Of a stretch of DNA of 46,454 nucleotides, positions 10,464 through 44,276 are shown in pieces. This stretch comes from Candidatus Doudnabacteria bacterium. Its GTDB lineage: Bacteria; Patescibacteriota; Doudnabacteria; UBA920; 2-01-FULL-46-14. The position numbers and the translations under genes were made by a program. The stretch is taken from positions 1-46,454 of the forward strand of contig JAHFJD010000002.1 of NCBI GenBank assembly GCA_023246055.1, in the 5' to 3' direction. How positions within the stretch are numbered: position 1 is the stretch's first letter; each line of letters begins with the position of its first letter. The notes below the pieces were generated by a model, which was given only the letters and a program-made list of their open reading frames with translations, made no database searches and had not been told where the DNA came from.

Positions 10464-11666
10464 TTAAAATGTCGAATAATAAGATACAGTGGTCTGATCA
10501 CAGGTGTCTTTGATCGACTGCTCGTCGAGCACGCTACAAAGCTGCTTGGCTCGGGCATCGTCATGCAGGTAAGAGATAAAATCTTTGACCGCACCAATTA
10601 TGCAATTGGTGCGCTGATCGAGGTTTTTGCCAAGGCCGCAGTTATGCTTCGTTTGCTCCACATTGCTCAAACTCCGCCCGGAAACATCGCGGCCCAGGCT
10701 TTGATAACAAGTATTGCGATGATTCTCCTCGACAGTAGAGCAAAGCTCAAATACGCGCGCAAAATCTCCGTTCGTGACTTTGAGCATGTAGCTCGTTTGC
10801 ATGAGGTAACAGGTACTTTTATACTGCTCCGCTACCGCATCGCAGGGATAGAGCGGGTCCTCTGGCTTGAGATATTTTGCATAGTGGTATTTGGTATCAA
10901 AAATGACATTCTCCATGAACGCGCCGCTCCAGCATGACGAGCGCTCCCACGAATCGGTAACTTTGTCACAAACCTCGAGAGATTTGAACAATTCATCATC
11001 ATAAATTGCCATGACGCCGTGTCCGAGTCCATGCACGCAGTTGTAATGATCGAAAGAATATCGTTCGGTGGCCGCTAGGGAGGCGCAAATCTCATTCATC
11101 TGTGACTCCAGTTTGGAGAGTCCAATCCGGCCGATGATTCCTTCTAGCACGCCGTGGTAATATCCGGACCAGCAAAAACTATCACCTTGCTTGTAGGCCT
11201 CAGCCACGTCCGCAAATTTTTTGGCGGCTTCATTGCCGATGACATGCGTGAGCGGATGACATTGCGACTGAACATAATCATTACCATTGTACCGCTCGCG
11301 CAAATCCGCGAGAGCTGCAGCAATCCCCACCCCTTTAACGACGGCAACGTAATAGCTCTGGTAGCAATCAAAATCCGACTGCTTGTCTCCGGTGCAAATG
11401 GACTGAACACTCACCGCCTCGTCTCCCCCACTCTGGAGGGAGAAATCTACCTGCTTTTCCCCTCCCCCTTGTGGGGAGGGGTTGAGGGAGGGGGTTGTCC
11501 CTGACGCAACCTCCCGATTCTCCGCAAAAGTTTGATTTACAAAATCCTGCACTGTGTTCGGCTCCCCTCCTTGTGAGGAGGGTTTAGGCGAGGACTTCAG
11601 TAAAAAAAATAATCCTGCCGCAGCGACAACAATAATAAAAATTGAAAAAAATATCTTTAGTTTCAT
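10464..11666 (-). CDS. Secreted or membrane-anchored Cys-rich hypothetical protein
   Basis: N-terminal TM/signal (IFFSIFIIVVAAAGLFFLL). Repeated C..G.GHG-like motifs. The N-terminal linker is built from three PE-1 copies. Confidence 0.65.
   Translation of the reverse strand: MKLKIFFSIFIIVVAAAGLFFLLKSSPKPSSQGGEPNTVQDFVNQTFAENREVASGTTPSLNPSPQGGGEKQVDFSLQSGGDEAVSVQSICTGDKQSDFDCYQSYYVAVVKGVGIAAALADLRERYNGNDYVQSQCHPLTHVIGNEAAKKFADVAEAYKQGDSFCWSGYYHGVLEGIIGRIGLSKLESQMNEICASLAATERYSFDHYNCVHGLGHGVMAIYDDELFKSLEVCDKVTDSWERSSCWSGAFMENVIFDTKYHYAKYLKPEDPLYPCDAVAEQYKSTCYLMQTSYMLKVTNGDFARVFELCSTVEENHRNTCYQSLGRDVSGRSLSNVEQTKHNCGLGKNLDQRTNCIIGAVKDFISYLHDDARAKQLCSVLDEQSIKDTCDQTTVSYYSTF
11423..11495. repeat. 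Two adjacent PE-1 elements inside CDS 10464-11666
   Basis: tctccc..gggaga and cccctccccc-ttgt-ggggagggg-ttgagggagggggt. They translate in-frame as SPQGGGEKQVDFSLQSGG. Confidence 0.75.
11561..11593. repeat. PE-1 element inside CDS 10464-11666
   Basis: gctcccctcc-ttgt-gaggaggg-tttaggcgagg, translated as PKPSSQGGEP. Confidence 0.75.
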
Positions 11667-12978: not shown

Positions 12979-13962
12979 CTAAGTTATCTTCCCCACAATG
13001 TTATTCAATTCCTCGTCAGAAAAAAACTCAATGGTGATTTTTCCGCTGCCTCTGGGGCCTTTGTTCACCTGAACTCGCGTTCCCAATTTGCCACGCAAAA
13101 GGTTCTCAAGCGAAGTCAAAAACGGGTCTGGAGTGAACATTTCTGCAACTTTGATCTTGCGCTGCGTGATTTCGCGAACCTTTGCTTCAATCTCCCTGAC
13201 CTTCATACCGCCTGCTAAAACCATTCTGAACATCTCAAGCATTTCATCACTATTGCGCAGCGTCAAAAGGGGCCTCGCTTGCCCTTCAGCGATCTTGCCC
13301 TCAATCAGTGCGCGCTGAATTTCAACCGGCAGATTGAGGAGGCGTAACAGGTTGGAGACTGTCGAAGGATTCTTGCCGACCTTTACCGCGATCTCGTTGA
13401 CCTTGAGATTGAATTCTTTTTGCAACCGCTCATAAGCCTTGGCCTCCTCAATCGGGTTGAGATCCGCGCGCTGCACATTTTCAATGAGTGCGATTTCGAG
13501 CTTTGCCTCGGAATTGATTTTTGGGGAAAGTAGAGCTGGAATTTTGGTGAGTCCCGCGAGCTTGGCTGCCCGAAATCTACGCTCTCCCACCAAGATCTCA
13601 TATTTACCAACACCCTGCTCGGTCACAACAAGCGGCTGGATAATCCCGTGGACTTTTATAGAATCTGCGAGCTCCCGCAGCTTCTCTGGATCAAAAATAC
13701 GCCGCGGTTGAAATTCGTTTGGTACAATATCGTTTAAATCTATTAGCGCGAGGGCTTGCCCGTCATGAGGAGAACGAAATCTCGCCTGCGGATCGGATTT
13801 CACTGTCGAGTGCAGTATAACATTGTTTCCGGAGGCAACCTCATCTCTTTTCCCCTCCTCATGAGGAGGGGTCGGGGAGGTCGTGGCCTCCAAATCCTCC
13901 TTGTCCCCCGAATCGTCAGCAAAGGAGGAAAAATTCCCGAGTTTAAAGACATCATCGTTCAT
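12979..13962 (-). CDS. parB: Chromosome partitioning protein ParB/Spo0J
   Basis: ParB-box GERRFRAAKLAG and HTH NEIAVKVGKNPSTVSNLLRLL. The N-terminal tail carries a PE-1 element. Confidence 0.9.
   Translation of the reverse strand: MNDDVFKLGNFSSFADDSGDKEDLEATTSPTPPHEEGKRDEVASGNNVILHSTVKSDPQARFRSPHDGQALALIDLNDIVPNEFQPRRIFDPEKLRELADSIKVHGIIQPLVVTEQGVGKYEILVGERRFRAAKLAGLTKIPALLSPKINSEAKLEIALIENVQRADLNPIEEAKAYERLQKEFNLKVNEIAVKVGKNPSTVSNLLRLLNLPVEIQRALIEGKIAEGQARPLLTLRNSDEMLEMFRMVLAGGMKVREIEAKVREITQRKIKVAEMFTPDPFLTSLENLLRGKLGTRVQVNKGPRGSGKITIEFFSDEELNNIVGKIT
13848..13881. repeat. PE-1 element inside parB
   Basis: cccctcc-tcat-gaggagggg-tcggggaggt, translated in-frame as TSPTPPHEEGK. Confidence 0.8.
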
Positions 13963-24066: not shown

Positions 24067-24715
24067 TGAGGATTTGGGTTTTTGTGATGGGCCCGCGGCG
24101 CAAAATTTTAATCTTATTTCCTTTTAATTGTACCATGGTTGATGACCGGACCCGCGGTAGTTTTCCACTGTCGAGACTCAAATCCGGCCGAAGTTTAGCG
24201 TTTCGGTATTGAAAATTGAGTTGTGAGACAGAATATGCGGTCGGATTGGTGGAGATGTTGGCGCTTGTGGCTGTAATTGGCCGTCCCAATTTTTTGACTA
24301 ATTGCAAAGCTATCTTGTTCTTTGGCACGCGAATCCCGACCGTGCCAGTTCCAGCCGAGAGAAGTGCAAAAGCGCTCCCTCTCCCCTTGCCCCCTCTCTT
24401 TCTCCCCCTCATGAGGGGGAGAAAGAGAGGGGGTCTGAGGGGTAGAATTAGTGTCAAGGTCCCCGGCAAAAACTCTTTAAATAATTTTTCTGCTGGCGCC
24501 GTAAACTCGGCATATTGTTTCGCCATTTTCAAGTCAGCAACTACGATATGAACGGGTTTATCCGGCCGTCGTTGCTTCATTTTGAAAAGCCGCCGCACTG
24601 CCCGCGCGTTCGTCGCGTCAACACCGAGGGCGTAAGCTGTATCAGTCGGAAAAACTACCGCCTTGCCAGCTTTAAGATATTTGATTGCATGATTTAAATT
24701 GGACAAGCGTGCCAC
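24050..24715 (-). CDS. tsaC: L-threonylcarbamoyladenylate synthase (YrdC/TsaC-domain protein)
   Basis: Contains VVFPTDTAYALG, LPGTLTLIL and GTVGIRVP. A PE-1 element is inserted between the last two motifs. Confidence 0.75.
   Translation of the reverse strand: MARLSNLNHAIKYLKAGKAVVFPTDTAYALGVDATNARAVRRLFKMKQRRPDKPVHIVVADLKMAKQYAEFTAPAEKLFKEFLPGTLTLILPLRPPLFLPLMRGRKRGGKGRGSAFALLSAGTGTVGIRVPKNKIALQLVKKLGRPITATSANISTNPTAYSVSQLNFQYRNAKLRPDLSLDSGKLPRVRSSTMVQLKGNKIKILRRGPITKTQILNALKF
24375..24443. repeat. PE-1 element (long form, 21-bp perfect arms) inside tsaC
   Basis: ccccctctctttctccccctc-at-gagggggagaaagagaggggg, translated as LRPPLFLPLMRGRKRGGKGRG. Confidence 0.85.
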
Positions 24716-24724
24716 GATCGTGTG

Positions 24725-25450
24725 CTAGTTGTCTAATTCCAAATCTTGGGGTACGGATATCTTTTTCCAGTGAGTTGCTTTTACCACCGAAAAATTACGA
24801 CCGTCTTTTACCATCTGTAAAAAAGTTTGCGGCAGTCCATATTCATTCGCCGGACTTCCAGCCGAGACGAGAGGATATTGAAACAGATCCTTATTTAAAA
24901 CATACGCCGAGGTATTTATCAATGCGCCGCCGCCTGCCGACCCGCGTTCCACTATATCAGCGAGTTCCCTTGCCTCATTGACCTTTACTACACCTCCTTG
25001 CAAAATTGAATTATCCGCGCCGCCTGGAAGCGGCCAAACTAATATAGCCAGCGGCTGTTTGATTAACATTTCGAGATCACCTTTGTAGTAAATATCGTCC
25101 CCTGACAAAACTAAAAATCTGTCGTTAAGCAGGTCCCTGCACTGGAAAACGGCATCGGCAGTGCCTTTCAACTCTTTTTGCTTAATATAAGTTATTTTCA
25201 GCTCTCTCCTCTCCCCCTTGTGGGGAGGAACTGAGGAAGTATGGATTACGAAGCTATCCCCAATCAATTCTTTTATCATCTCCCCTTTGTATCCGATGAC
25301 CACGATTACCTCTTCCACTTCATCAGGAAGCTCGGAAAGGTTATGTTCCAGGATTGTTTTATCCCCGATTTTGAGGAGCGGTTTTGGAGTACTCTTGGTT
25401 AAAACTCCCATCCTCGTCCCCCGTCCGGCGGCCAAAATTACACATTGCAT
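24725..25450 (-). CDS. Sugar-phosphate nucleotidyltransferase
   Basis: N-terminal ILAAGRGTRMG...KPLL motif. Carries an in-frame PE-1 insertion. Confidence 0.8.
   Translation of the reverse strand: MQCVILAAGRGTRMGVLTKSTPKPLLKIGDKTILEHNLSELPDEVEEVIVVIGYKGEMIKELIGDSFVIHTSSVPPHKGERRELKITYIKQKELKGTADAVFQCRDLLNDRFLVLSGDDIYYKGDLEMLIKQPLAILVWPLPGGADNSILQGGVVKVNEARELADIVERGSAGGGALINTSAYVLNKDLFQYPLVSAGSPANEYGLPQTFLQMVKDGRNFSVVKATHWKKISVPQDLELDN
25206..25239. repeat. PE-1 element inside the nucleotidyltransferase gene
   Basis: ctcctctccccc-ttgt-ggggagga-actgaggaag, translated as SSVPPHKGERRE. Confidence 0.8.
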
Positions 25451-25451
25451 A

Positions 25452-25492
25452 GTTCCGCGTTTGTCTGCGTCAAGTCCGCGTTAGTCCGCGTT
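25452..25492. repeat. About 4 x 10-bp tandem repeat (AGTCCGCGTT-like) spanning the leuS stop
   Basis: gttccgcgtt tgtctgcgtca agtccgcgtt agtccgcgtt. The last unit encodes the leuS C-terminus NAD and the stop. Confidence 0.8.
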
Positions 25493-28400
25493 TATGACGA
25501 AATTAATTATTCTCCCTGGCACATAGATGAATTTGCCAATTTTCTTGCCGGCAAGGTGTTTCGCAATCACAGGATCGCCTTCCGATGTCTTTCTTGCATC
25601 GGCTTCCGTAGCATTGATATCCAACTGCACCGTCCCGCGTACTCGCCCATTGACCTGCACCGCAATTTTTACAAACTCATCTTTCATAAAGGCAGGATCA
25701 TATTCTGGCCACGGTTCGAGGTGAACCGATGTTTTGTGTCCAAGCTCACTCCACAATTCTTCGGCAACATGCGGTGCAAACGGAGCGAGGAGCTTCAACA
25801 ATATTTCTGCCTCAACGTTACCGGCGGGTGAATTATCTAATTCATTTGCCAAAATCATCAGTGCTGACACAGCAGTGTTGAATCTATAATTTTCAATATC
25901 TTCTGTAACCTTCTTGATTGTCTTGTGCAGTATTGTTTGAAGTTTAGAATTTGGAATTTCTTTTGAAATTTGAAATTTGAAATTTGAAATTCGGTATACC
26001 TTCTCCAACAATCTCCGGACGCCGATTATCCCGCGTGAATTCCAGCTCACTGTTTGGTCGTGGGGTCCCAAAAATAGCTCATACATGCGCAAAGTGTCTG
26101 CTCCGTAAAGCTTAACTATTTCGTCAGGGTTTACTACATTACCCCGACTTTTGCTCATTTTCTCACCATCCTCAGCCAGGATGATCCCATGCGGCACGCG
26201 TTTGGTGTAAGGCTCGGCGACTGGCACGATTCCCTGATCATACAAAAATAAATTCCAAAATCGCGAATACAATAAATGCAGAGTCGTATGTTCCATGCCG
26301 CCGAAATAAATATCCACTGGCAGCCAATGTTTCAGAAGCTTCCCATCAGCCAATTTAATCTTATTATCAGGATCAGTGTACCGGAGATAATACCAAGAAC
26401 TGCCAGCCCACTGCGGCATAGTGTTGGTTTCTCGCTTGGCCTGCCCGCCACAGTTCGGGCATTTCACACTCACCCACTTGTCTATTGCAGCCAGCGGAGA
26501 CTCCCCGGTTCCTGTCGGCTCGTATTTTTTCACATTGGGAAGCTTTACCGGCAAATCTTTTTCTGGCACTGGCACTGTCCCGCATGACGGGCAATGAATA
26601 ATCGGTATGGGTTCGCCCCAGTATCTCTGCCGCGAAAACACCCAATCACGGAGTTTATATTGGATTTTTTTAATCCCGTTTACAAGTTCAATTATTTCCC
26701 ATTTCGCCTTTTCCGAATCCATGCCATTGAATTTAGAGGAATTTATCAATGCACCATCACCTGAATAACAAATTAAGCCTTTATAATGGGGGTTATGGGC
26801 AAGCATATCCCAAACACTTTTTTTACTTCTAATCAAGGGCTCCCACTCTGTAAACTTTTTAAACCATTCTTCAGCACGTTCTAAAAAGTTTTTATGAACT
26901 TTATTTTTCATTACTAAAATATTCTCATTCCCAATAATCTCAACCCAGGCGTTATCTTTGATATGCTTCTGCACCAAGTTCACGAATTCATTAATTTGAT
27001 CTTTTTTTAATTCTACCCTGATATGTTCGCGGCCATTTGTGGGACTGGCAGCCAACGTAAAATTTATTCCTTTATTCTGTAATTGCTTTTTAAATTCATC
27101 ACTACCCTCTAAAGTCACAGTAACAACAATTGCTTTCCAAATGTTTCGCGGAGCTATCACTGGCCTAATAAGTAAACCGTATTTAATAGCAAATTCAAAA
27201 TCCCGCTCGTCATGCGCTGGCACGGCCATGATCGCACCAGTGCCATAGCCCATCAAAACATAATCAGCAACCCAAATCGGTATTTTTTCGCGAGTAGCAG
27301 GATTGATCGCCTTTACACCTTTCAATTCCACACCAGTCTTTTCTTTCTCAAGCGCTGACCTCTGAATATCAGTTTTCCTCTTCGCTTCTTCGACGTATTT
27401 CTCAATCTCTTTGATATTTGTAATTTGAGATTTGAAATTTTGTAACAGCGGATGCTCCGGTGCCAGGACCACATACGTCGCACCAAATATCGTGTCAGGA
27501 CGGGTAGTGAACACTTTGATGGCTTGCCCCTCTCCCCAGGCCTGGGGAGAGGTTGGGAGAGAGGTCGCTCTCAACAACGTTTCCAGAACAGCCGGTTCCT
27601 CTTTCCCACTCATATGTGGCTCGCTACCATTAACTCTGTTCAAATTAACACCTAATTTACGGGCAAAAGCTTCTCCGTCGGACATTGGCACGACATAATC
27701 CCTCGAATCATAGAGCAATGTAAATCTCTGCGCATTGCGTTTGATTTTTTCAAAATCAAAGCCTTTTTTGCAAGCCGTGGTAACCGAAGCACGAACTTTT
27801 TCGTCTAAAAACTTTCCTGAAAACGGAGTACATAACAATACTACCCCTTTGGCTTTCATCCCTCTTTCCAACAAACGCAATGCTACCACGCCGCCAAATG
27901 AATGACCGACTATGACTGTATTCTCATTAATATTACAATTATTAATAACAAATTGTGCTTGTTCTTCATCGTTTGGTTCCGAAGAGTTCGGCAGACTGGG
28001 CATTTGGACTCTGTGACGCAATTTTTCCAATTCAAACTTTAACCATGGAAAAAGATGACTGCTTGGAGAGCCGTTCCGGCCATGCAAGATCAAAAAGTTA
28101 GGATTTGTCATCCCGGGCTTGACCCGGGATCCAGAATCCGAATCCTGGATTCCCGCCTGCGCGGGAATGACAGATAACAGGAACTCTATCTCCGCTCCCT
28201 CGCTCTTGCCAATCCAGTTTTCCTGCTGGAGTTTGACTTGTGACGGCCACTCGGGAAGTTTTTTTAGACCTTCGAGGAGCTTTTCAGCGTATGCGGTGAT
28301 TTGGAGATACCATTGCCGCAGTTCTTTTTTCTCTACTGGCGTGCCACAGCGTTCGCATTTACCGTCAATGACTTCTTCATTCGCAAGACCAGTTTTGTCC

Positions 28401-28882
28401 TGCGGACACCAATTGATGAGGCCCGTGGCTTCGTACGCAAGTCCGGCTTTGAAAAACTGCAAAAAAATCCACTGCGTCCATTTGTAATATTCAGGATCTG
28501 TGGTATTGATCTCACGCGACCAGTCAAAGCTCATGCCCCAGCTTTGCACTTGTCGCTTGGCATTTTTGATATTCTGCTTCGTGGAAATACTCGGATGCAC
28601 GCCCTTCTTTATGGCAAAATTTTCCGCCGGTAATCCAAACGCATCCCAACCTATTGGAAACATTGTCTCAAAGCCTTTCATGCGCTGGAAACGGGAATAC
28701 ACATCCCCTGCCACGTACGGCCGCAGATGTCCCATATGAAGCCCTTCGCCAGACGGATATGGAAACTCAATCAGAACATATTTTTTGTTATTCTTGGTTT
28801 TATCTTTGGCAATATAAACTTTTTTCTGCTGCCAGAATTTCTGCCATTTCGATTCTATTTTCTTTGGGTCATATTTACTCAT
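25481..28882 (-). CDS. leuS: Leucyl-tRNA synthetase with two large in-frame insertions
   Basis: HMGH (GLHMGHLRPY), KMSKS (KMSKSRGN), TTRPDT editing motif and RDWVFSRQRYWGEPIP. ATG at 28882; an alternative TTG lies at 28906. 1133-1141 aa versus about 800-880 typical. Confidence 0.93.
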   Translation of the reverse strand: MSKYDPKKIESKWQKFWQQKKVYIAKDKTKNNKKYVLIEFPYPSGEGLHMGHLRPYVAGDVYSRFQRMKGFETMFPIGWDAFGLPAENFAIKKGVHPSISTKQNIKNAKRQVQSWGMSFDWSREINTTDPEYYKWTQWIFLQFFKAGLAYEATGLINWCPQDKTGLANEEVIDGKCERCGTPVEKKELRQWYLQITAYAEKLLEGLKKLPEWPSQVKLQQENWIGKSEGAEIEFLLSVIPAQAGIQDSDSGSRVKPGMTNPNFLILHGRNGSPSSHLFPWLKFELEKLRHRVQMPSLPNSSEPNDEEQAQFVINNCNINENTVIVGHSFGGVVALRLLERGMKAKGVVLLCTPFSGKFLDEKVRASVTTACKKGFDFEKIKRNAQRFTLLYDSRDYVVPMSDGEAFARKLGVNLNRVNGSEPHMSGKEEPAVLETLLRATSLPTSPQAWGEGQAIKVFTTRPDTIFGATYVVLAPEHPLLQNFKSQITNIKEIEKYVEEAKRKTDIQRSALEKEKTGVELKGVKAINPATREKIPIWVADYVLMGYGTGAIMAVPAHDERDFEFAIKYGLLIRPVIAPRNIWKAIVVTVTLEGSDEFKKQLQNKGINFTLAASPTNGREHIRVELKKDQINEFVNLVQKHIKDNAWVEIIGNENILVMKNKVHKNFLERAEEWFKKFTEWEPLIRSKKSVWDMLAHNPHYKGLICYSGDGALINSSKFNGMDSEKAKWEIIELVNGIKKIQYKLRDWVFSRQRYWGEPIPIIHCPSCGTVPVPEKDLPVKLPNVKKYEPTGTGESPLAAIDKWVSVKCPNCGGQAKRETNTMPQWAGSSWYYLRYTDPDNKIKLADGKLLKHWLPVDIYFGGMEHTTLHLLYSRFWNLFLYDQGIVPVAEPYTKRVPHGIILAEDGEKMSKSRGNVVNPDEIVKLYGADTLRMYELFLGPHDQTVSWNSRGIIGVRRLLEKVYRISNFKFQISKEIPNSKLQTILHKTIKKVTEDIENYRFNTAVSALMILANELDNSPAGNVEAEILLKLLAPFAPHVAEELWSELGHKTSVHLEPWPEYDPAFMKDEFVKIAVQVNGRVRGTVQLDINATEADARKTSEGDPVIAKHLAGKKIGKFIYVPGRIINFVINAD
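25964..25991. repeat. 4 x 7-bp perfect tandem repeat TGAAATT inside the leuS CDS
   Basis: tgaaatt repeated four times, translated (minus strand) as ISNFKFQIS. The unit length is not a multiple of 3. Confidence 0.9.
27527..27565. repeat. PE-1 element at the C-terminal junction of the hydrolase insert
   Basis: cccctctcccc-aggcct-ggggagag-gttgggagagagg, translated as LPTSPQAWGEG. Confidence 0.8.
28107..28171. repeat. PE-2 element (65-bp double palindrome) at the N-terminal junction of the hydrolase insert
   Basis: gtcatcccgggcttgacccgggatccagaatccgaatcctggattcccgcctgcgcgggaatgac, translated as SVIPAQAGIQDSDSGSRVKPGM. Confidence 0.85.
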
Positions 28883-28935
28883 CGACTTGATTATTTTAGC
28901 AAACAACGTAAAATATTGGAATCAGAGGAGGAACC

Positions 28936-29211
28936 ATGCATGAACTTACTCCGATACAGTCGAAGCTCATAGAATTGATTGACCAGAGAGTAGAGAGATG
29001 CTTGAACACAGATCGTGGAATTTTGAGTCTTCACGAACGCCTCAACAAGACAGGCTTGAGTATCGCGACTGTGCATACGAGATATATCGTTCAGGATTTG
29101 CTGCCTGCAGCACGTGAAAGGTGTTTCTTGGTTGATCCTAAGGGAATGATTGAAAAAGTAAATCCCGATGAAGCTGAAGCGCGACAGCTGTTCAACATCA
29201 CCCTGAAATAA
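28936..29211 (+). CDS. Hypothetical protein (91 aa, possibly wHTH-like)
   Basis: ATG after GAGGAGGAA and followed by a terminator. It is divergent from leuS. Confidence 0.5.
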   Translation: MHELTPIQSKLIELIDQRVERCLNTDRGILSLHERLNKTGLSIATVHTRYIVQDLLPAARERCFLVDPKGMIEKVNPDEAEARQLFNITLK

Positions 29212-29229
29212 CCAGGCTGAACGCGCTAC

Positions 29230-29259
29230 GCCAGCTCCTCCCGAAGCTGGCCTTTTTTT
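29230..29259 (+). terminator. Rho-independent terminator
   Basis: gccagct-cctcccga-agctggc followed by cttttttt. Confidence 0.7.
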
Positions 29260-30145
29260 AAATTCGAAAAAGCTTGCGGGCGTTGGCAGTGGTGACTTCT
29301 TCTACCTCCGACAAAGCGACACCCTTCATTTCTGCCAATTTTTCTGCCACAAATTTCACGAATACTGGTTCATTGCGCTTGCCGCGGTGCGGCAGGGGCG
29401 CGAGATACGGAGCGTCAGTCTCAAGAATAGTAGATTCGAGCGGCACACTTTTTACAACCTCGTCGCTTCTCCCAGTCTTGTCAAAAGTAATGATCCCATT
29501 GAGAGCAATGTATCCGCCTCGTTTGACAAACTCTTGTGCGATTGCGGTATTGCCAGTGAAGCAGTGGATTTCAAAACCATCACCTCCCACCCCCGCTTTT
29601 TCTCCCCCTCGGGCAGGGGGAGAAACTAAATAGTTATCGTCAAGAATTCGTAGGACATCCTCATACGCGTCCATTGTTCCTTCGCTCGGACGGCAGTGGA
29701 TCATGAGCGGCTTGCCAACCTGCTTCGCAAGTTCTATGTGCGCTATCATCACTCGCTTTTGATGCTCTTTGATTGCGGTCTCGTCCGCTCCTGCAGGAAG
29801 GCGAAAATAGTCCAAACCAAACTCGCCTATGGACACTACTTTGGTGGATTTCGCTACAAGATCAGCATATGCACCAGGGTCAAATTCTTCCTCACTGCTA
29901 TTGAACGACGCTCCCTCTTCCTGTAGATCGACATGGTGTTCAAATAAATGGATCGGGTGCAGAGCGACGGCTGCATACACACCATCAGAATAATTTTCCG
30001 CGAGCTCTACTGCCGCCCGCGAAGTTTCAAATTTTGTTCCTGCATTAATCATCCACACACCGCTCTCTAGTGCGCGTTTTATAACATCGTCAGCATCCTT
30101 GGAGAACGCCTGGAAATTGACGTGAGTATGGGTGTCAACGAGCAT
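29258..30145 (-). CDS. TatD-family metal-dependent hydrolase
   Basis: MLVDTHTHVNF with His/Asp motifs of the TatD family. Carries an in-frame PE-1 insertion. Confidence 0.85.
   Translation of the reverse strand: MLVDTHTHVNFQAFSKDADDVIKRALESGVWMINAGTKFETSRAAVELAENYSDGVYAAVALHPIHLFEHHVDLQEEGASFNSSEEEFDPGAYADLVAKSTKVVSIGEFGLDYFRLPAGADETAIKEHQKRVMIAHIELAKQVGKPLMIHCRPSEGTMDAYEDVLRILDDNYLVSPPARGGEKAGVGGDGFEIHCFTGNTAIAQEFVKRGGYIALNGIITFDKTGRSDEVVKSVPLESTILETDAPYLAPLPHRGKRNEPVFVKFVAEKLAEMKGVALSEVEEVTTANARKLFRI
29600..29624. repeat. PE-1 element inside the tatD-like gene (tail on the opposite side)
   Basis: ttctccccc-tcgggca-gggggagaa with a C-rich tail cctcccaccccc upstream. Translated as VSPPARGGEKAGVGG. 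Confidence 0.75.
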
Positions 30146-33904: not shown

Positions 33905-34002
33905 GGTAAAATTCAAATGACAAATTCCAAATTTCAAATCAATGCTTTAATAACCAAATGAATAAATTAGGGTTTGATTTGACATTTGAGCTTTGAAATT
34001 TG
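33905..34002. repeat. AT-rich inverted repeat of GAAATTT/CAAATTT units filling the intergenic spacer
   Basis: aaatgacaaattccaaatttcaaatc ... gatttgacatttgagctttgaaatttgtcattt. The motif is related to the leuS internal STR. Confidence 0.75.
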
Positions 34003-35091
34003 TCATTTAATAATCATACTTTTAAAATCTTTAGGGGGCTTTGGCAAGACCTCGTTGCCGAGATTCTTGACTAGCACCATATCTTCTATCCTCACCCCGC
34101 CCCAATTCTCAATATATATCCCAGGTTCGACAGTGACAACCATGTTCGGACGCAGAATATCCTCGGATGTGGCCGAAAAATTCGGCAATTCATGGATTTC
34201 CAATCCAACACCATGCCCGGTATTGTGGGTAAAATATTTGCCAAAGCCCGCCCGTTTGATGTGTCCGCGGGCTGCCTCGTCTATGAGCACCGCAGGATTG
34301 CCCGCAGTCGCTTTTTCAATTCCGCGCTGCTGCGCCTCCAAAACTGTATTATACACTGTTTCCTGCCTCCTCGTGGGGGTGCCGATGAAAAACGTGCGGG
34401 TAAAATCCGAATGATAGCCATCGACCAGGACGCCAAAGTCGAGGAGTAAAAAATTGCCGCGCTTGATTTTCTGCATGCTGGAAAGATGATGGGGAGCGGC
34501 TGCATTTGGTCCGAAGGCCACGATAGACTCAAAAGCCATGCCGCCCGCGCCAAACCGCACAGCCCAATCTCGCATCTTTTGCGATAGCGCGAGTTCAGTC
34601 ATCCCCGGAAGCGACATTTTCTTTACGGTCACAAAAATCTTATCGAGAATGGCCTGCGCTTTTCTAATGTATTTGATTTCCTGCGGGGTCTTTACCGCCC
34701 GTAGATTTTCAATGACATTGCTTGTCACTTCCCATTTCACACTTTTGAAGTCTTTTTTGAGGCGGCTGAATTCTTTGAGGCTAATCTTGTCTTCAATACC
34801 GATTCGACCTCTCCCCCAACCCCTCCCCAGGCCTGGGGAGGGTGGTCGGAGACCAGGAGAGGTCGAAAGCTTTTTAATTGATTTCACAAGGAGCGGCGAT
34901 TGTCTCTTTGCTCTGATTGTATACCGATCATCAACGTACAATTCCGCCCCGCGCTTGGTCACCAGTACTGCCCCCATTGACCCGGTAAACCCAGACACAT
35001 ACTGCCGATTTAATTTCGTCAGCACTAAAAAAGCATCCAGTGAATGCTCATCCAAATATCCTTGAATATTTTTAATTGAGTTTGGCTGCAA
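34003..35091 (-). CDS. Xaa-Pro aminopeptidase (M24 family)
   Basis: Contains HNTGHGVGLEIHE and VEPGIY. An in-frame PE-1 insertion sits in the N-terminal domain. Confidence 0.88.
   Translation of the reverse strand: MQPNSIKNIQGYLDEHSLDAFLVLTKLNRQYVSGFTGSMGAVLVTKRGAELYVDDRYTIRAKRQSPLLVKSIKKLSTSPGLRPPSPGLGRGWGRGRIGIEDKISLKEFSRLKKDFKSVKWEVTSNVIENLRAVKTPQEIKYIRKAQAILDKIFVTVKKMSLPGMTELALSQKMRDWAVRFGAGGMAFESIVAFGPNAAAPHHLSSMQKIKRGNFLLLDFGVLVDGYHSDFTRTFFIGTPTRRQETVYNTVLEAQQRGIEKATAGNPAVLIDEAARGHIKRAGFGKYFTHNTGHGVGLEIHELPNFSATSEDILRPNMVVTVEPGIYIENWGGVRIEDMVLVKNLGNEVLPKPPKDFKSMIIK
34805..34866. repeat. PE-1 element (long symmetric form) inside the aminopeptidase gene
   Basis: cgacctctcccccaacccctcccc-aggcct-ggggagggtggtcggagaccaggagaggtcg, translated as RPPSPGLGRGWGRGR. 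Confidence 0.85.
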
Positions 35092-37223: not shown

Positions 37224-38480
37224 ATGAATTTTTTTGAAATCCAAAAAAAAGACCCAAAATCGCAAGCGCGGCTCGGGGTCATCAATACCGCTCACGGACC
37301 AGTTAAAACTCCAGCTTTTTTGCCAATTGGCACTAGAGGCTCTGTCAAAACCGTGACCGCAGAAGAGCTCCGATTTTGGGGAGCGGAAATGATCCTGGCT
37401 AACACCTATCATCTCTGGATGCGGCCTGGAGATACGTTAATTGCCAGGGCAGGCGGTTTGCACAAATTCATTGGCTGGGACGGACCTATTTTTACTGATT
37501 CTGGTGGATACCAAGTCTATTCTCTGGGAGAAAAAATCGTCTCGTCATTGCGAGGTAACCCGAAACAATCTAATTCAGAGATTGCCGCGCGGAGTACCGC
37601 TCGCAATGACCTGCAAGAGAAAGGTCCGATTCTCAAAGGCATTAGCAATGTTGGAGTCGAATTTCGAAACGAGCTTGATGGAGCGACTCATGTGCTAACT
37701 CCAGAGGAATCAATCCAGATCCAATCAAACCTCGGATCTGATATTGCGCTCGTGCTCGACGACGTGCCAGCACTGCCGGCGAGCAAGAAACGGCTGGAGG
37801 ATTCCCTAAGGCTCACCTTGCACTGGGCCAAACGCGCCAAATCGCATTACGAAAAGATAATCGAAGCATCGGTGAACCCTGGCCAAAAACTCTATGGCAT
37901 TGTGCAAGGCGGAGATTTGGAAGAGTTGAGAGCAAAATCTGTTCAAGGTCTGCAAAAAATCGGGTTTGACGGATACGGAATCGGGGGGCTAGCGATCGGT
38001 GCCGTAGCAGATAACCCTGAAATAATGTACCGCGTGATCAAAGCTACAACTCCGCACCTCGAAGAAAACAAACCCCGACACCTGCTGGGTGTCGGTTATC
38101 CCGAACAAATTGTCAAGGCTGTGAGCCTCGGCATAGATACTTTCGATTGCGTCATTCCCACGAGAAACGCTCGTCATGCCCAGCTATTTGTGAATTCCAA
38201 GACCTCTCCTTTCTCCCCTCCTAGTGAGGAGGGGTCGGGGGAGGTTAAAAATTATGATCTCATCACCATCACGAACGCTCAATTCAAAGAGGACTTCACC
38301 CCAGTTGACAATACCTGCTCGTGCTACCTCTGCCTGCATCACAACCGCGCGTATTTGCGGCACTTATTCATGAGTGGGGAGCCGCTCGGCATCAGGCTTG
38401 CCACCATGCACAATCTGCGATTCTATCTAGATCTCATGGAAAAAATCCGCCGCGCTATTGAATTTGATTCGTTAGTTTAA
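37224..38480 (+). CDS. tgt: Queuine tRNA-ribosyltransferase with two in-frame repeat insertions
   Basis: Contains GWDGPIFTDSGGYQV, GIGGLAIG and Zn motif CSCYLCLHHNRAYLRHL. 418 aa versus about 375 typical. Confidence 0.92.
   Translation: MNFFEIQKKDPKSQARLGVINTAHGPVKTPAFLPIGTRGSVKTVTAEELRFWGAEMILANTYHLWMRPGDTLIARAGGLHKFIGWDGPIFTDSGGYQVYSLGEKIVSSLRGNPKQSNSEIAARSTARNDLQEKGPILKGISNVGVEFRNELDGATHVLTPEESIQIQSNLGSDIALVLDDVPALPASKKRLEDSLRLTLHWAKRAKSHYEKIIEASVNPGQKLYGIVQGGDLEELRAKSVQGLQKIGFDGYGIGGLAIGAVADNPEIMYRVIKATTPHLEENKPRHLLGVGYPEQIVKAVSLGIDTFDCVIPTRNARHAQLFVNSKTSPFSPPSEEGSGEVKNYDLITITNAQFKEDFTPVDNTCSCYLCLHHNRAYLRHLFMSGEPLGIRLATMHNLRFYLDLMEKIRRAIEFDSLV
37544..37610. repeat. PE-3 element inside tgt
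   Basis: gtcattgcgagg...(45 nt)...ctcgcaatgac, translated as SSLRGNPKQSNSEIAARSTARNDL. Confidence 0.8.
38203..38245. repeat. PE-1 element inside tgt
   Basis: cccctcc-tagt-gaggagggg-tcgggggaggt, translated as SPFSPPSEEGSGEV. Confidence 0.8.
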
Positions 38481-44249: not shown

Positions 44250-44276
44250 GTCATTCCCGCGGAGGCGGGAATCCAG
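44250..44276. repeat. PE-2 element (half copy) inserted between degenerate and intact module blocks
   Basis: gtcattcccgcggaggcgggaatccag. Confidence 0.75.

What the first reader, a model, noticed from the sequence alone, without database searches (positions are those of the whole stretch)
27521..28180. A complete RBBP9/YdeN-type serine hydrolase sits in-frame inside the LeuRS editing domain, bracketed by two different palindromic elements
The leuS ORF is 1133-1141 aa, against about 800-880 aa for bacterial LeuRS. The conserved segment NWIGKSEGAEIEF and the editing-domain motif IKVFTTRPDT are only about a dozen residues apart in E. coli and T. thermophilus LeuRS. Here about 220 aa separate them, and that stretch reads as a whole alpha/beta hydrolase. 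It has its own Met (MTNPNFLILHGRNGSPSSHLFPWLK), a nucleophile elbow (VIVGHSFGGV), an Asp region (LLYDSRDYVVP) and a His region (GSEPHMSG). The order matches the RBBP9/YdeN 'Ser_hydrolase' fold. One junction is a 65-bp PE-2 double palindrome (28107-28171, translated VIPAQAGIQDSDSGSRVKPG). The other is a PE-1 palindrome (27527-27565, translated LPTSPQAWGEG). There are no stop codons across the roughly 660 bp. This looks like repeat-mediated capture of an entire gene into an essential aminoacyl-tRNA synthetase, placed next to the hydrolytic proofreading site. I am not aware of a described precedent.
Basis: partly seen in the sequence, partly recalled or inferred. Interest (0 to 1): 0.75.

Follow-up and report, generated by a model that had tools for sequence, protein, structure and literature searches.

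The report
Serine hydrolase cassette nested inside LeuRS
The leucyl-tRNA synthetase of this ultra-small (Patescibacteria/CPR) bacterium really does carry a complete serine hydrolase inside it, but this is an old, widespread and swappable module that also sits next to leuS as a separate gene in other genomes, and the two palindromic repeats at its edges are later add-ons.

Summary
leuS (window 25481-28906, minus strand) has 220 aa between NWIGKSEGAEIEF and IKVFTTRPDT, where Thermus LeuRS has about 7. That stretch scores above Pfam threshold as an RBBP9/YdeN hydrolase. AlphaFold models it confidently (pLDDT >92). The LeuRS body still matches solved LeuRS structures.

About 90 of the 120 closest LeuRS relatives, from independent assemblies and including syntenic Doudnabacteria loci, carry a 183-190 aa hydrolase at the same site without the palindromic elements (PEs). 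Ser/Asp/His are 99/95/99% conserved. The PEs are genome-wide repeats that also lie in-frame in TatD, an NTP-transferase and a Sua5-like gene. Here they encode low-confidence linkers, and the "own Met" is an ATG inside PE-2.

New findings:
- Free-standing close homologs lie immediately upstream of leuS in 6 of 8 cases, including archaeal-type leuS. One operon also holds a YbaK-like deacylase and a Ham1-like gene.
- The hydrolase is nested at three LeuRS sites and in other essential proteins.
- Its phylogeny is decoupled from the host's, so it is an exchanged cassette.

The function is inferred: a LeuRS-associated alpha-aminoacyl hydrolase. I found no published description.

The parts
25481..28906 (-). 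leuS, bacterial-type leucyl-tRNA synthetase. The ORF is 1141 aa from a TTG. The likely start is the ATG at 28882, giving 1133 aa.
   Evidence: ORF. (TIGR00396, 992 bits against a cut-off of 548). (P0001, 1133 aa, 100% identical). (Foldseek TM 0.83 to 2BTE and 5ON2).
28181..28906 (-). N-terminal catalytic part of LeuRS (aa 1-242), ending in NWIGKSEGAEIEF.
28107..28171 (-). PE-2, a 65-nt double palindrome with terminal inverted repeats GTCATTCCCG...CCCGGGATGAC. It encodes most of the N-side linker (aa 243-265, VIPAQAGIQDSDSGSRVKPG) and supplies the ATG of the apparent 'own Met'.
   Evidence: two hairpins, z -5.6. (first hairpin repeated at 44250-44276). (absent in P0002, P0003 and P0005; a diverged copy at the same site in P0004/L001). 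(aa 252-265 have pLDDT <50).
27566..28111 (-). RBBP9/YdeN-type (PF06821) serine hydrolase domain, aa 266-447. Key codons: Ser336 at 27899-27901, Asp400 at 27707-27709, Asp403 at 27698-27700, His431 at 27614-27616.
   Evidence: Pfam, 37 bits on the stretch alone. (YdeN 1e-11, RBBP9 1e-8). (Ser 99%, Asp400 95%, Asp403 90%, His 99% over 92 inserts). (block-mean pLDDT 92-98 over aa 271-440).
27521..27567 (-). C-side linker (aa 448-462, ATSLPTSPQAWGEGQ), encoded by the PE-1 palindrome (27527-27567).
   Evidence: repeat at 34805-34845, 90%. (hairpin). (absent in nearest relatives). (aa 450-459 have pLDDT <50).
27143..27520 (-). CP1 editing domain proper (about aa 463-588). The T-rich motif FTTRPDT and the downstream HDERD motif are intact.
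   Evidence: PF13603, 196 bits. (T467, T468, R469, T472, D566 and D569 invariant in 111 sequences).
26750..27154 (-). Second, separate insertion (aa 585-719, 135 aa) inside the C-terminal part of CP1. It is low in G+C and of unknown family.
   Evidence: gap in the leuS_bact match. (GC 0.33-0.36). (other relatives hold NUDIX, a methyltransferase, HAD or a second hydrolase here). (no family, no homologs). (28% identity to the P0023 insert).
25484..26749 (-). C-terminal catalytic part of LeuRS (KMSKS at aa 916-920) plus the anticodon-binding and C-terminal domains.

Best explanation
What it is:
An old, lineage-wide domain insertion. A small RBBP9/YdeN-family serine hydrolase with an intact Ser-Asp-His triad is nested in the tip of the beta-hairpin that opens the LeuRS CP1 editing domain. 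It is modelled as a self-contained globule, and LeuRS, including an intact CP1 editing site, is undisturbed.

What it is not:
It is not a recent capture and not an assembly artefact.

How it evolves:
The hydrolase belongs to a clade that is a genomic partner of leuS. It appears in two forms. One is a separate gene immediately upstream of leuS, of either bacterial or archaeal type. The other is a domain nested at one of three LeuRS surface sites. At the site used here it behaves as a discrete cassette that has been repeatedly replaced by divergent homologs.

Most likely mechanism (inferred, not shown):
It acts as an accessory alpha-aminoacyl hydrolase working beside LeuRS. It would cleave an ester or amide bond to a free-amine hydrophobic amino acid. 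Candidate substrates are mis-acylated tRNA, an aminoacyl-adenylate or an analogue of one, or a reactive editing by-product. That would make it a quality-control or house-cleaning module rather than a replacement for CP1.

The palindromic elements:
PE-2 and PE-1 are members of genome-wide repeat families that insert in-frame into coding genes, as Rickettsia palindromic elements do. They landed later in the two permissive linkers. There they encode low-confidence, probably flexible tethers. PE-2 also creates the spurious internal 'start' Met.
For: Shown:
- Pfam, PDB and triad evidence for the hydrolase.
- AlphaFold gives a mean pLDDT of 87.5. Block means are 92-98 over aa 271-440, and the PE-coded linkers score below 50. 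The LeuRS body has TM 0.83 to 2BTE and 5ON2.
- 92 of the 120 closest LeuRS relatives have a 170-260 aa insert at the same site. Typical length is 183-190 aa against 220 aa here, and the excess equals the two PE peptides.
- Loci are syntenic in Doudnabacteria.
- CP1 catalytic residues are invariant with or without the insert.
- Free-standing homologs 45-55% identical to nested ones lie 0-36 bp upstream of leuS, in the same direction. These are P0134, P0141, P0157 and P0154 (bacterial-type leuS) and P0165 (archaeal-type leuS). P0164 lies in an operon with the order hydrolase, hydrolase, YbaK-like PF04073, Ham1-like, archaeal-type leuS. That makes 6 of 8 examined.
- The same family is nested at three LeuRS sites.
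- Cassette exchange. Hydrolase identity against LeuRS-core identity gives Spearman -0.01, while the Ncat-Ccat control gives 0.81. P0007/P0059 have flanks 86-100% identical but hydrolases only 42% identical. P0016/P0079 have cores 62% identical but hydrolases 82% identical. DNA identity drops sharply at aa ~242 and recovers at aa ~460.
- PEs lie in-frame in an NTP-transferase, TatD and a Sua5-like gene, and are absent from orthologs.

From the literature (family chemistry):
- RBBP9 forms acyl-enzymes with single hydrophobic amino acids, needs a free alpha-amine, and cleaves amide, ester or thioester bonds (PMC8866121).
- RBBP9 is reported as a valacyclovir-activating enzyme, i.e. it cleaves a valyl ester of a nucleoside analogue (Shenoy 2020, as cited in PMC7730578).
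Against: - No activity or substrate was tested. The functional part rests on family chemistry, gene fusion and gene neighbourhood.
- The residue that binds the alpha-amine in RBBP9 (Glu108) aligns to Val371 here, so the specificity may differ.
- The same hydrolase family is also fused to or nested in ValRS, AlaRS, UvrB, SecA, TsaD, Der, Fmt, Adk and LspA. That argues against a strictly LeuRS-specific role.
- Insert-less LeuRS are interleaved with insert-bearing ones in a rough NJ tree, so LeuRS does not need the insert.
- The neighbourhood sample is small (8 look-ups).
Confidence: 0.6

Rival explanations
1. A free-standing hydrolase gene was recently captured into leuS by recombination between the two palindromic elements. 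The PEs mark the capture junctions and the internal Met is the old start codon.
For: PE-2 and PE-1 sit exactly at the two junctions. PE-like peptides recur at domain junctions in other LeuRS: P0004, P0060, P0075, P0100, P0074 and P0104. WIN and P0004 carry PEs at the same two sites around hydrolases of different subtypes. Free-standing homologs exist.
Against: About 80 of the 92 insert-bearing homologs have no PE peptides, and their linkers are short and tight. The nearest syntenic relatives P0002, P0003 and P0005 lack PEs but have the hydrolase. The PEs are 90-96% identical to other copies in the genome, while the inserts are diverged to 30-80%. The same PE families sit in-frame in unrelated genes. 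The Met codon lies inside the PE-2 terminal repeat. The window has no transposase or DUF559 gene.
Confidence: 0.07
2. A selfish or hitch-hiking in-frame cassette. The hydrolase, sometimes with an endonuclease or transposase, is a mobile module that spreads into conserved sites of essential genes, as an intein does but without splicing. It is tolerated in surface loops and has no functional relationship to LeuRS.
For: The cassette phylogeny is decoupled from the host, with breakpoints at the insert boundaries. The same family is nested in many essential proteins: ValRS, AlaRS, UvrB, SecA, TsaD, Der and Fmt. A DUF559 endonuclease-like domain lies beside the hydrolase at the same site in P0060, P0075 and P0100, and an IS200-like Y1 transposase domain is nested there in P0202. 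Presence and absence are patchy. G+C is slightly lower than in the flanks.
Against: The catalytic triad is 95-99% conserved over 92 diverged inserts, which a passive passenger would not need. The free-standing form is specifically placed next to leuS in both bacterial-type and archaeal-type contexts. That fits an operon partner, not a homing element. No Hint or intein motif is present. No endonuclease is present in this window.
Confidence: 0.2
3. Substrate supply. The domain is an RBBP9-like aminopeptidase that releases hydrophobic N-terminal residues (Leu) from scavenged peptides and feeds them to the adjacent synthetic site. This would suit auxotrophic CPR/DPANN cells.
For: RBBP9 is an aminopeptidase that forms Leu/Ile/Phe/Tyr/Trp acyl-enzymes. 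The hosts include LeuRS, ValRS and AlaRS.
Against: The operon with a YbaK-like deacylase and a Ham1-like gene, and the co-nested NUDIX, Ham1, GNAT and HAD modules, point to clean-up chemistry rather than nutrition. Fusions to UvrB, SecA and Der do not fit. No channel or geometry could be examined.
Confidence: 0.1
4. Assembly chimera or decaying pseudogene copy of leuS.
For: Repeats at both junctions could in principle mislead an assembler.
Against: An identical 1133-aa protein lies on a second contig (ENA, 13.2 kb). Dozens of independent assemblies show the same architecture at the same site. The locus is syntenic. The frame is open, all LeuRS catalytic and editing motifs are invariant, and the model is confident.
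Confidence: 0.02

Closest known systems
RBBP9 / B. subtilis YdeN serine hydrolases (Pfam PF06821)
   Same: Size of about 180 aa. Alpha/beta hydrolase secondary-structure order. GxSxG nucleophile elbow. Ser-Asp-His order. They are the best PDB sequence matches (1UXO E 1e-11, 2QS9/9FCR E 1e-8). A D-E-x-x-R-A/P-S loop is shared with RBBP9.
   Different: Here the domain is nested inside another enzyme rather than free-standing. It is about 30% identical to the solved members. RBBP9's amine-binding Glu108 aligns to Val371. The substrate is unknown.
CP1 editing domain of class Ia aminoacyl-tRNA synthetases (LeuRS, IleRS, ValRS)
   Same: A hydrolytic domain inserted into the synthetase polypeptide. 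The new insert sits in the first hairpin of CP1.
   Different: The fold is unrelated (alpha/beta hydrolase with a Ser nucleophile, whereas CP1 has no Ser nucleophile). CP1 is retained and intact, so this is an addition and not a substitute.
Free-standing trans-editing deacylases (YbaK/ProXp PF04073, AlaX, DTD)
   Same: Small hydrolases genomically or functionally attached to synthetases. A YbaK-like gene shares an operon with two of these hydrolases and leuS in L093.
   Different: No sequence or fold relationship. No alpha/beta-hydrolase-fold tRNA deacylase turned up in the literature I could search.
Synthetases carrying an extra enzymatic domain, e.g. NCBIfam NF040702 'isoleucine--tRNA ligase, N-acetyltransferase domain-containing'
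   Same: A class Ia synthetase carrying a small unrelated enzyme domain (the family is listed). P0170 carries GNAT plus hydrolase at the same LeuRS site.
   Different: Different host, different passenger. I know of no published work on the hydrolase case.
Rickettsia palindromic elements (RPEs) and other intragenic MITE/REP-like repeats
   Same: Short palindromic repeats, multicopy in the genome, inserted in-frame in unrelated housekeeping genes and translated as surface peptides (review PMC10969869).
   Different: Much shorter (about 27-65 nt against about 150 nt). Different phylum. No sequence relationship was tested. Two families happen to flank a nested domain here.
Inteins
   Same: In-frame insertions at conserved sites of essential proteins, with a phylogeny decoupled from the host. 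In some relatives an endonuclease-like domain accompanies the insert.
   Different: No Hint domain or splice-junction residues. The insert is modelled as a permanent, catalytically intact enzyme domain.

Membership tests
Bacterial-type leucyl-tRNA synthetase (TIGR00396) | Whole-protein score above the curated cut-off | tested here: met
   992.5 bits against a cut-off of 548.4, matched in 3 stretches because of the two insertions.
Bacterial-type leucyl-tRNA synthetase (TIGR00396) | HIGH and KMSKS catalytic motifs, the CP1 T-rich motif and conserved Asp, and an anticodon-binding domain | tested here: met
   HMGH at aa 57-60, KMSKS at aa 916-920. T467/T468/R469/T472 and D566/D569 are invariant in 111 sequences. 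PF13603 and PF08264 hits.
Bacterial-type leucyl-tRNA synthetase (TIGR00396) | Overall LeuRS fold | tested here: met
   Foldseek TM (target-normalised) of 0.83 to T. thermophilus 2BTE and E. coli 5ON2.
PF06821 Ser_hydrolase (RBBP9/YdeN) | Pfam score above the gathering threshold over most of the model | tested here: met
   33.2 bits in the whole protein and 37.4 bits for the stretch alone, against a GA of 22. Model positions 1-154 of 172 are matched.
PF06821 Ser_hydrolase (RBBP9/YdeN) | GxSxG nucleophile elbow followed by Asp and His, in that order, and conserved | tested here: met
   GHSFGG (Ser336), Asp400/Asp403 and His431. They are conserved at 99%, 95%/90% and 99% in 92 nested homologs.
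PF06821 Ser_hydrolase (RBBP9/YdeN) | Compact alpha/beta hydrolase fold | tested here: inconclusive
   AlphaFold block-mean pLDDT is 92-98 over aa 271-440, with alternating strand/helix order. No fold search was run on the domain alone. Sequence matches to 1UXO and 2QS9 support the fold.
PF06821 Ser_hydrolase (RBBP9/YdeN) | Hydrolase activity on alpha-aminoacyl amides or esters with a free amine | not testable with these tools
   Known only for human RBBP9 (PMC8866121). Glu108 of RBBP9 is not conserved at the aligned position.
Known aminoacyl-tRNA editing / trans-editing domains (CP1, INS/YbaK PF04073, AlaX, DTD) | Homology of the inserted stretch to one of these folds | tested here: not met
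   Pfam and NCBIfam scans of aa 243-462 return only alpha/beta hydrolase families. 'Works like an editing factor' remains a hypothesis.
Intein | Hint/intein splicing domain and splice-junction residues (N-terminal Cys/Ser, C-terminal His-Asn followed by Cys/Ser/Thr) | tested here: not met
   No Hint or intein family in Pfam. The junctions read ...IEF|LLSVIPA... and ...GEGQA|IKVF....
In-frame palindromic repeat elements (RPE-like / intragenic MITE or REP) | Multicopy in the genome and able to form hairpins | tested here: met
   PE-1-like family has 9 loose copies, and PE-2's hairpin has 2 copies against 0 in shuffles. DNA-fold z-scores are -5.6 and -2.4.
In-frame palindromic repeat elements (RPE-like / intragenic MITE or REP) | Inserted in-frame in coding genes and absent from orthologs | tested here: met
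   Both leuS junctions, the NTP-transferase (14 aa), TatD (11-14 aa) and the Sua5-like gene, compared with L001 and L003 orthologs.
In-frame palindromic repeat elements (RPE-like / intragenic MITE or REP) | Terminal inverted repeats, target-site duplication and a cognate transposase | tested here: inconclusive
   PE-2 has terminal inverted repeats. Target duplications were not analysed. No Y1 transposase or DUF559 is in the 46-kb window, though a Y1_Tnp gene lies near leuS in a relative (L099).

The most novel reading that the evidence does not exclude
The nested hydrolase is one of a set of mobile, exchangeable 'guard' cassettes. Its companions in relatives are GNAT, NUDIX, Ham1-like, HAD and methyltransferase modules. 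The cassettes are inserted in-frame into surface loops of essential target proteins, above all LeuRS.

In this reading the hydrolase cleaves aminoacyl-nucleotide or aminoacyl-ester inhibitors, such as leucyl-adenylate mimics, or mis-made aminoacyl species, right at their target. The analogy is to MccF and MccE, which detoxify processed microcin C (this comparison rests on my own knowledge and was not tested).

An arms race would explain three observations: the frequent swapping of divergent cassettes at a fixed site, the patchy presence, and the linkage to leuS in both CPR bacteria and organisms with archaeal-type LeuRS.

A more radical variant is that the cassettes are self-propagating, non-splicing, intein-like elements.
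Probability: 0.15. Interest if true: 0.9.

Novelty: new variant of a known kind. Interest (0 to 1): 0.72.

Why it matters
Leucyl-tRNA synthetase is one of the most studied and most conserved enzymes. Its only known hydrolytic module is CP1. Here a large group of uncultivated bacteria carries a second, unrelated serine hydrolase with an intact triad wired into CP1.

The same hydrolase is an operon neighbour of leuS elsewhere, including beside archaeal-type LeuRS and a YbaK-like deacylase. Gene fusion together with gene neighbourhood is classic evidence for a functional partnership. Combined with the chemistry of the RBBP9 family (removal of a free-amine hydrophobic aminoacyl group), it gives a directly testable hypothesis. 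The hydrolase could be a new kind of translation quality-control or anti-inhibitor activity in organisms with minimal genomes.

The cassette-like replacement of a domain inside an essential gene, and the in-frame palindromic repeats that serve as linkers, are also clean natural examples of how nested multidomain proteins are built and remodelled.

Tried and rejected
- Assembly chimera or pseudogene: rejected on an identical second contig, many independent assemblies, synteny and invariant catalytic motifs.
- Intein: rejected. No Hint domain and no splice residues.
- Ordinary lineage-specific CP1 extension without hydrolase similarity: rejected.
- Loss of CP1 editing compensated by the hydrolase: rejected for nested forms, since the CP1 motifs are invariant. 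Among leuS with an upstream free-standing hydrolase, only one of four (L085) has a degenerate T-rich motif.
- Second insert (aa 585-719):
  - Pfam found nothing.
  - The homolog search found nothing.
  - The single-sequence AlphaFold model was poor, pLDDT 56.6.
  - Foldseek gave only weak ferredoxin-like/PII/ACT-like matches, E >= 0.009. I make no assignment.
  - It showed the insert only in CPR loci (L011, L012, L040; site 3 in L054) and in none of the sampled loci titled as Bacillota, Spirochaetes or other non-CPR taxa.
  - It could not test for a second leuS copy in this genome.
- Model coordinates are not exposed, so I could not measure the distance or orientation between Ser336 and the CP1 pocket or the tRNA path.
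- ORF downstream of an insert-less Doudnabacteria leuS (L099, 182 aa): it looks like a hydrophobic membrane protein and has no hydrolase match.
- Four literature searches for a described LeuRS-hydrolase or CPR synthetase insertion found nothing relevant.
- Transposase or DUF559 in the window: none.


Full report
1. THE OBSERVATION

Window 25481..28906 on the minus strand is one open frame of 1141 aa starting at a TTG. The likely start is the ATG eight codons in, which gives the 1133-aa product that public gene calls report. It is a bacterial-type LeuRS. It scores 992 bits on TIGR00396 against a cut-off of 548, but the match is broken into three stretches.

NWIGKSEGAEIEF ends at aa 242 and IKVFTTRPDT begins at aa 463. 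In T. thermophilus LeuRS the same motifs end at residue 234 and begin at about 242. Insert-less relatives have 8 residues there.

The intervening 220 aa hit Pfam PF06821 (Ser_hydrolase, the RBBP9/YdeN family) above the gathering threshold. The score is 33 bits in context and 37 bits alone, against a GA of 22. The best solved relatives are B. subtilis YdeN (1UXO, E 1e-11) and human RBBP9 (E 1e-8).

PE-2 (28107-28171) folds as two hairpins (z -5.6). PE-1 (27527-27567) folds as one hairpin (z -2.4). Both recur elsewhere in the window. PE-2's first hairpin is at 44250-44276 (26/27 identical) and PE-1 is at 34805-34845 (90%). Shuffled sequence gives no such matches.

2. IT IS REAL AND NOT PRIVATE TO THIS CONTIG

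A search with the whole protein returned 120 top LeuRS relatives. Those that carry a source name are all labelled Patescibacteria/CPR groups (Doudnabacteria, Paceibacterota, 'Patescibacteria group'), apart from a few labelled only 'bacterium'. Most relatives are 940-1200 aa long and carry precomputed PF06821/PF00561 hits.

In a joint alignment, 92 of them have a 170-260 aa insert at exactly this site, typically 183-190 aa. About 22 have only an 8-18 aa loop.

The loci of P0002 and P0004 are syntenic with the window, with the order metG-tatD-(inositol phosphatase)-leuS-NTP transferase-Sua5-like. This is therefore the orthologous, resident leuS. A 100% identical 1133-aa product also lies on a separate 13.2-kb ENA contig.

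AlphaFold2 with this alignment gives a mean pLDDT of 87.5. The hydrolase block means are 92-98 over aa 271-440. The CP1 and catalytic domains are confident. Foldseek places the body on T. thermophilus and E. coli LeuRS with a target-normalised TM of 0.83. The CP1 editing residues (T467, T468, R469, T472, D566, D569) are invariant across 111 sequences, with or without the insert. The hydrolase is therefore an addition to an intact editing domain, not a replacement.

3. THE HYDROLASE IS MAINTAINED AS AN ENZYME

Across the 92 nested copies, mean pairwise identity is 40%. Even so, the nucleophile Ser336 is 99% conserved, Asp400 95% (Asp403 90%) and His431 99%. Several family motifs are also kept: PWLK.ELE, GHS.GG, F.D.K.RP and EP..L.

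4. THE PALINDROMIC ELEMENTS ARE LATE ARRIVALS

The window's insert is about 34 aa longer than the norm. The excess is exactly the two PE-encoded peptides.

The closest relatives P0002, P0003 and P0005 (LeuRS core 80-82% identical) have the hydrolase but no PE peptides. P0004 has diverged copies of both elements at the same two positions, and the hairpin stems have changed on both strands.

PE-free homologs have no Met there.

In the model, the PE-encoded segments (aa 252-265 and 450-459) are the only parts of this region with pLDDT below 50. That is what one expects of flexible tethers. It could also reflect their near absence from the alignment.

The same repeat families lie in-frame in other genes of the window and are missing from the orthologs. 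There is a 14-aa insertion in the NTP-transferase (25207-25239) and an 11-14 aa insertion in TatD (29577-29619). There is also a variable stretch in the Sua5-like gene (24377-24440). This is the behaviour described for Rickettsia palindromic elements (review PMC10969869).

The PEs therefore mark permissive linkers. They do not mark the scars of a capture event.

5. THE HYDROLASE CLADE IS A GENOMIC PARTNER OF leuS

An exhaustive HMMER search with the domain found 1487 cluster representatives at E <= 1e-3. Among the best 150 were:
- about 79 free-standing proteins of about 180 aa;
- 32 LeuRS with the domain at this site (site 1);
- 11 LeuRS with the domain at a third site, after …IPIIHC;
- others in different hosts.

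P0006 and P0073 carry a more distant paralog at a second site inside CP1.

I looked up the neighbourhoods of eight free-standing proteins that are 45-55% identical to nested copies:
- Four (P0134, P0141, P0157, P0154) lie 2-36 bp upstream of an insert-less bacterial-type leuS, in the same direction, in four different surroundings.
- One (P0165) abuts an archaeal-type leuS.
- One (P0164) heads an operon of hydrolase, second hydrolase (the site-2 type), YbaK-like PF04073 protein, Ham1-like protein and archaeal-type leuS.
- Two were uninformative or negative.

A distant 33%-identical archaeal homolog has no synthetase nearby.

The modules of that operon are the same ones found nested in CPR LeuRS. 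They are Ham1-like (P0085, P0119), a second hydrolase (P0006, P0073) and NUDIX (many). GNAT (P0170), HAD (P0045) and methyltransferase (P0028, P0049) modules are nested too.

Fusion together with conserved adjacency, across both LeuRS types, is strong comparative evidence for a functional link.

6. THE INSERT IS AN EXCHANGEABLE CASSETTE

Over the 92 site-1 proteins, pairwise identity of the hydrolase is uncorrelated with that of the LeuRS core (Spearman -0.01; Mantel test, 370 of 999 permutations reach the observed value). The N- and C-terminal LeuRS parts correlate at 0.81, and the two halves of the hydrolase correlate at 0.59.

Concrete cases:
- P0007/P0059: 98-100% identical upstream of the insert and 86-93% just downstream, but 42% in the hydrolase.
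- P0019/P0036: core 90%, hydrolase 34%.
- P0016/P0079: core 62%, hydrolase 82%.

Of 41 pairs with hydrolases at least 70% identical, 25 have a less similar LeuRS core.

Even the window's own syntenic clade carries three hydrolase subtypes. The window's hydrolase is closest to that of P0010 (68-71%), whose LeuRS core is only 69% identical.

A codon-aligned sliding window of WIN against L003 and L001 shows nucleotide identity falling from about 0.8 to 0.3-0.6 at aa ~242. It recovers at aa ~460.

The module has therefore been replaced repeatedly, with breakpoints at its boundaries. How this happens was not determined. Candidates are recombination in the highly conserved flanking codons, differential loss from tandem copies such as P0033, or a site-specific process.

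PE-2-like peptides (VIPAxAGIQ…GMT) sit at the N-junction in WIN, P0004, P0074 and P0104, next to three different hydrolase subtypes. DUF559 endonuclease-like and IS200-like Y1 transposase domains are nested at the same site in a few relatives. Mobile DNA clearly visits this spot. The window itself encodes neither enzyme.

7. WHAT IT PROBABLY DOES (INFERENCE)

Human RBBP9 traps single hydrophobic amino acids (Leu/Ile, Phe, Tyr, Trp) on its catalytic serine. It requires a free alpha-amine, and its authors conclude that it cleaves amide, ester or thioester bonds to such residues (PMC8866121). It is also reported to activate valacyclovir, a valyl ester of a nucleoside analogue (Shenoy et al. 2020, as cited in PMC7730578).

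That is the chemistry of deacylating an aminoacyl-tRNA or cleaving an aminoacyl-nucleotide. The leuS linkage and the YbaK-like, Ham1-like, NUDIX and GNAT company point the same way. My preferred reading is an accessory alpha-aminoacyl hydrolase serving LeuRS quality control or clean-up.

Caveats:
- RBBP9's amine-binding Glu108 aligns with Val371 here.
- The family is also fused to ValRS, AlaRS, UvrB, SecA, TsaD, Der, Fmt, Adk and LspA.
- Insert-less LeuRS are interleaved with insert-bearing ones.
- I could not inspect the model's geometry.

Rivals are a selfish, non-splicing, intein-like cassette, and a leucine-supplying aminopeptidase.

8. NOVELTY

Four full-text searches found no description of a hydrolase-bearing LeuRS or of CPR synthetase insertions. 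A 2026 survey of domain insertions describes the LeuRS editing domain (PF13603) only as an insert, with zero instances as a host across 213 insertion events.

The sequences themselves are public. The names sources give them include 'leucine--tRNA ligase', 'alpha/beta fold hydrolase' and 'hypothetical protein'.

I rate this a new variant of a known kind: a synthetase with an accessory or nested enzymatic domain. There is an outside chance that it is a new class of translation-associated hydrolase or a new kind of mobile in-frame cassette.

Noticed in passing
window 26750-27154 (-), leuS aa 585-719: A second, unrelated 135-aa insertion inside the C-terminal part of CP1. Its G+C is 0.33-0.36 against about 0.45-0.5 in the flanks. 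It has no Pfam family and no homologs by the word-index search, and is 28% identical to the insert of P0023 at the same site. A poor single-sequence model gives only weak ferredoxin-like (PII/ACT-like) fold matches. In relatives the same site holds NUDIX, a SAM methyltransferase, HAD or a second hydrolase.
   Followed up: partly
window 25207-25239, 29577-29619, 24377-24440; also 11458-11592, 13848-13880, 34805-34851, 38211-38243, 44250-44276: G+C-rich palindromic repeat families (PE-1-like, PE-2 hairpin) lie inside ORFs throughout the window. For the NTP-transferase, TatD and the Sua5-like gene, ortholog alignments show them as in-frame 11-17 aa insertions that are absent from or different in relatives. 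This is RPE-like behaviour in a CPR genome. The other copies were only mapped onto ORFs.
   Followed up: partly
P0060, P0075, P0100, P0202, P0170, P0119, P0085, P0033 (LeuRS relatives, site between NWIGKSEGAEIEF and FTTRPDT): The same LeuRS loop hosts other passengers in relatives. These are hydrolase plus a DUF559 endonuclease-like domain flanked by PE-like peptides, an IS200-like Y1 transposase domain, GNAT plus hydrolase, hydrolase plus Ham1-like, Ham1-like alone, and two tandem hydrolases.
   Followed up: partly
P0186, P0177, P0203, P0146, P0184, P0193, P0278, P0226, P0200: The same hydrolase family is nested in or fused to other essential proteins: ValRS, AlaRS, UvrB, SecA, TsaD/Kae1, the Der GTPase, a formyltransferase (PF00551 Formyl_trans_N), adenylate kinase and signal peptidase II.
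   Followed up: partly
L093 4001-8549: An operon with the order hydrolase (site-1 type), hydrolase (site-2 type), YbaK-like PF04073 protein, Ham1-like protein, archaeal-type leuS. It is an unfused version of the modules nested in CPR LeuRS. The organism was not determined.
   Followed up: partly
L085 2831-4558: A leuS with a free-standing hydrolase 2 bp upstream has a degenerate CP1 threonine-rich motif (SYDSVPQT instead of FTTRPDT). Three other such leuS keep the motif.
   Followed up: no
window 28907-29257: The inositol-monophosphatase gene(s) found between tatD and leuS in the syntenic loci L001 and L003 are missing here. The 350-bp gap holds only a 91-aa ORF on the opposite strand (28936-29211).
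   Followed up: no
window 25962-25996, 27410-27444, 33978-34012: A third, A+T-rich repeat (TTTGAAATTTGAAATT…) occurs twice inside leuS. One copy encodes NFKFQISK in a variable loop near aa 970-985, and the other lies near aa 488-499. A further copy lies elsewhere in the window. It may be another in-frame repeat family.
   Followed up: no
L099 861-1463 and 8044-8532: In a Doudnabacteria genome whose leuS has no insert, an IS200-like Y1 transposase gene lies about 3.5 kb upstream of leuS in the same syntenic block. A free-standing NUDIX gene lies two genes downstream of leuS. It is only about 28% identical to nested NUDIX inserts.
   Followed up: partly
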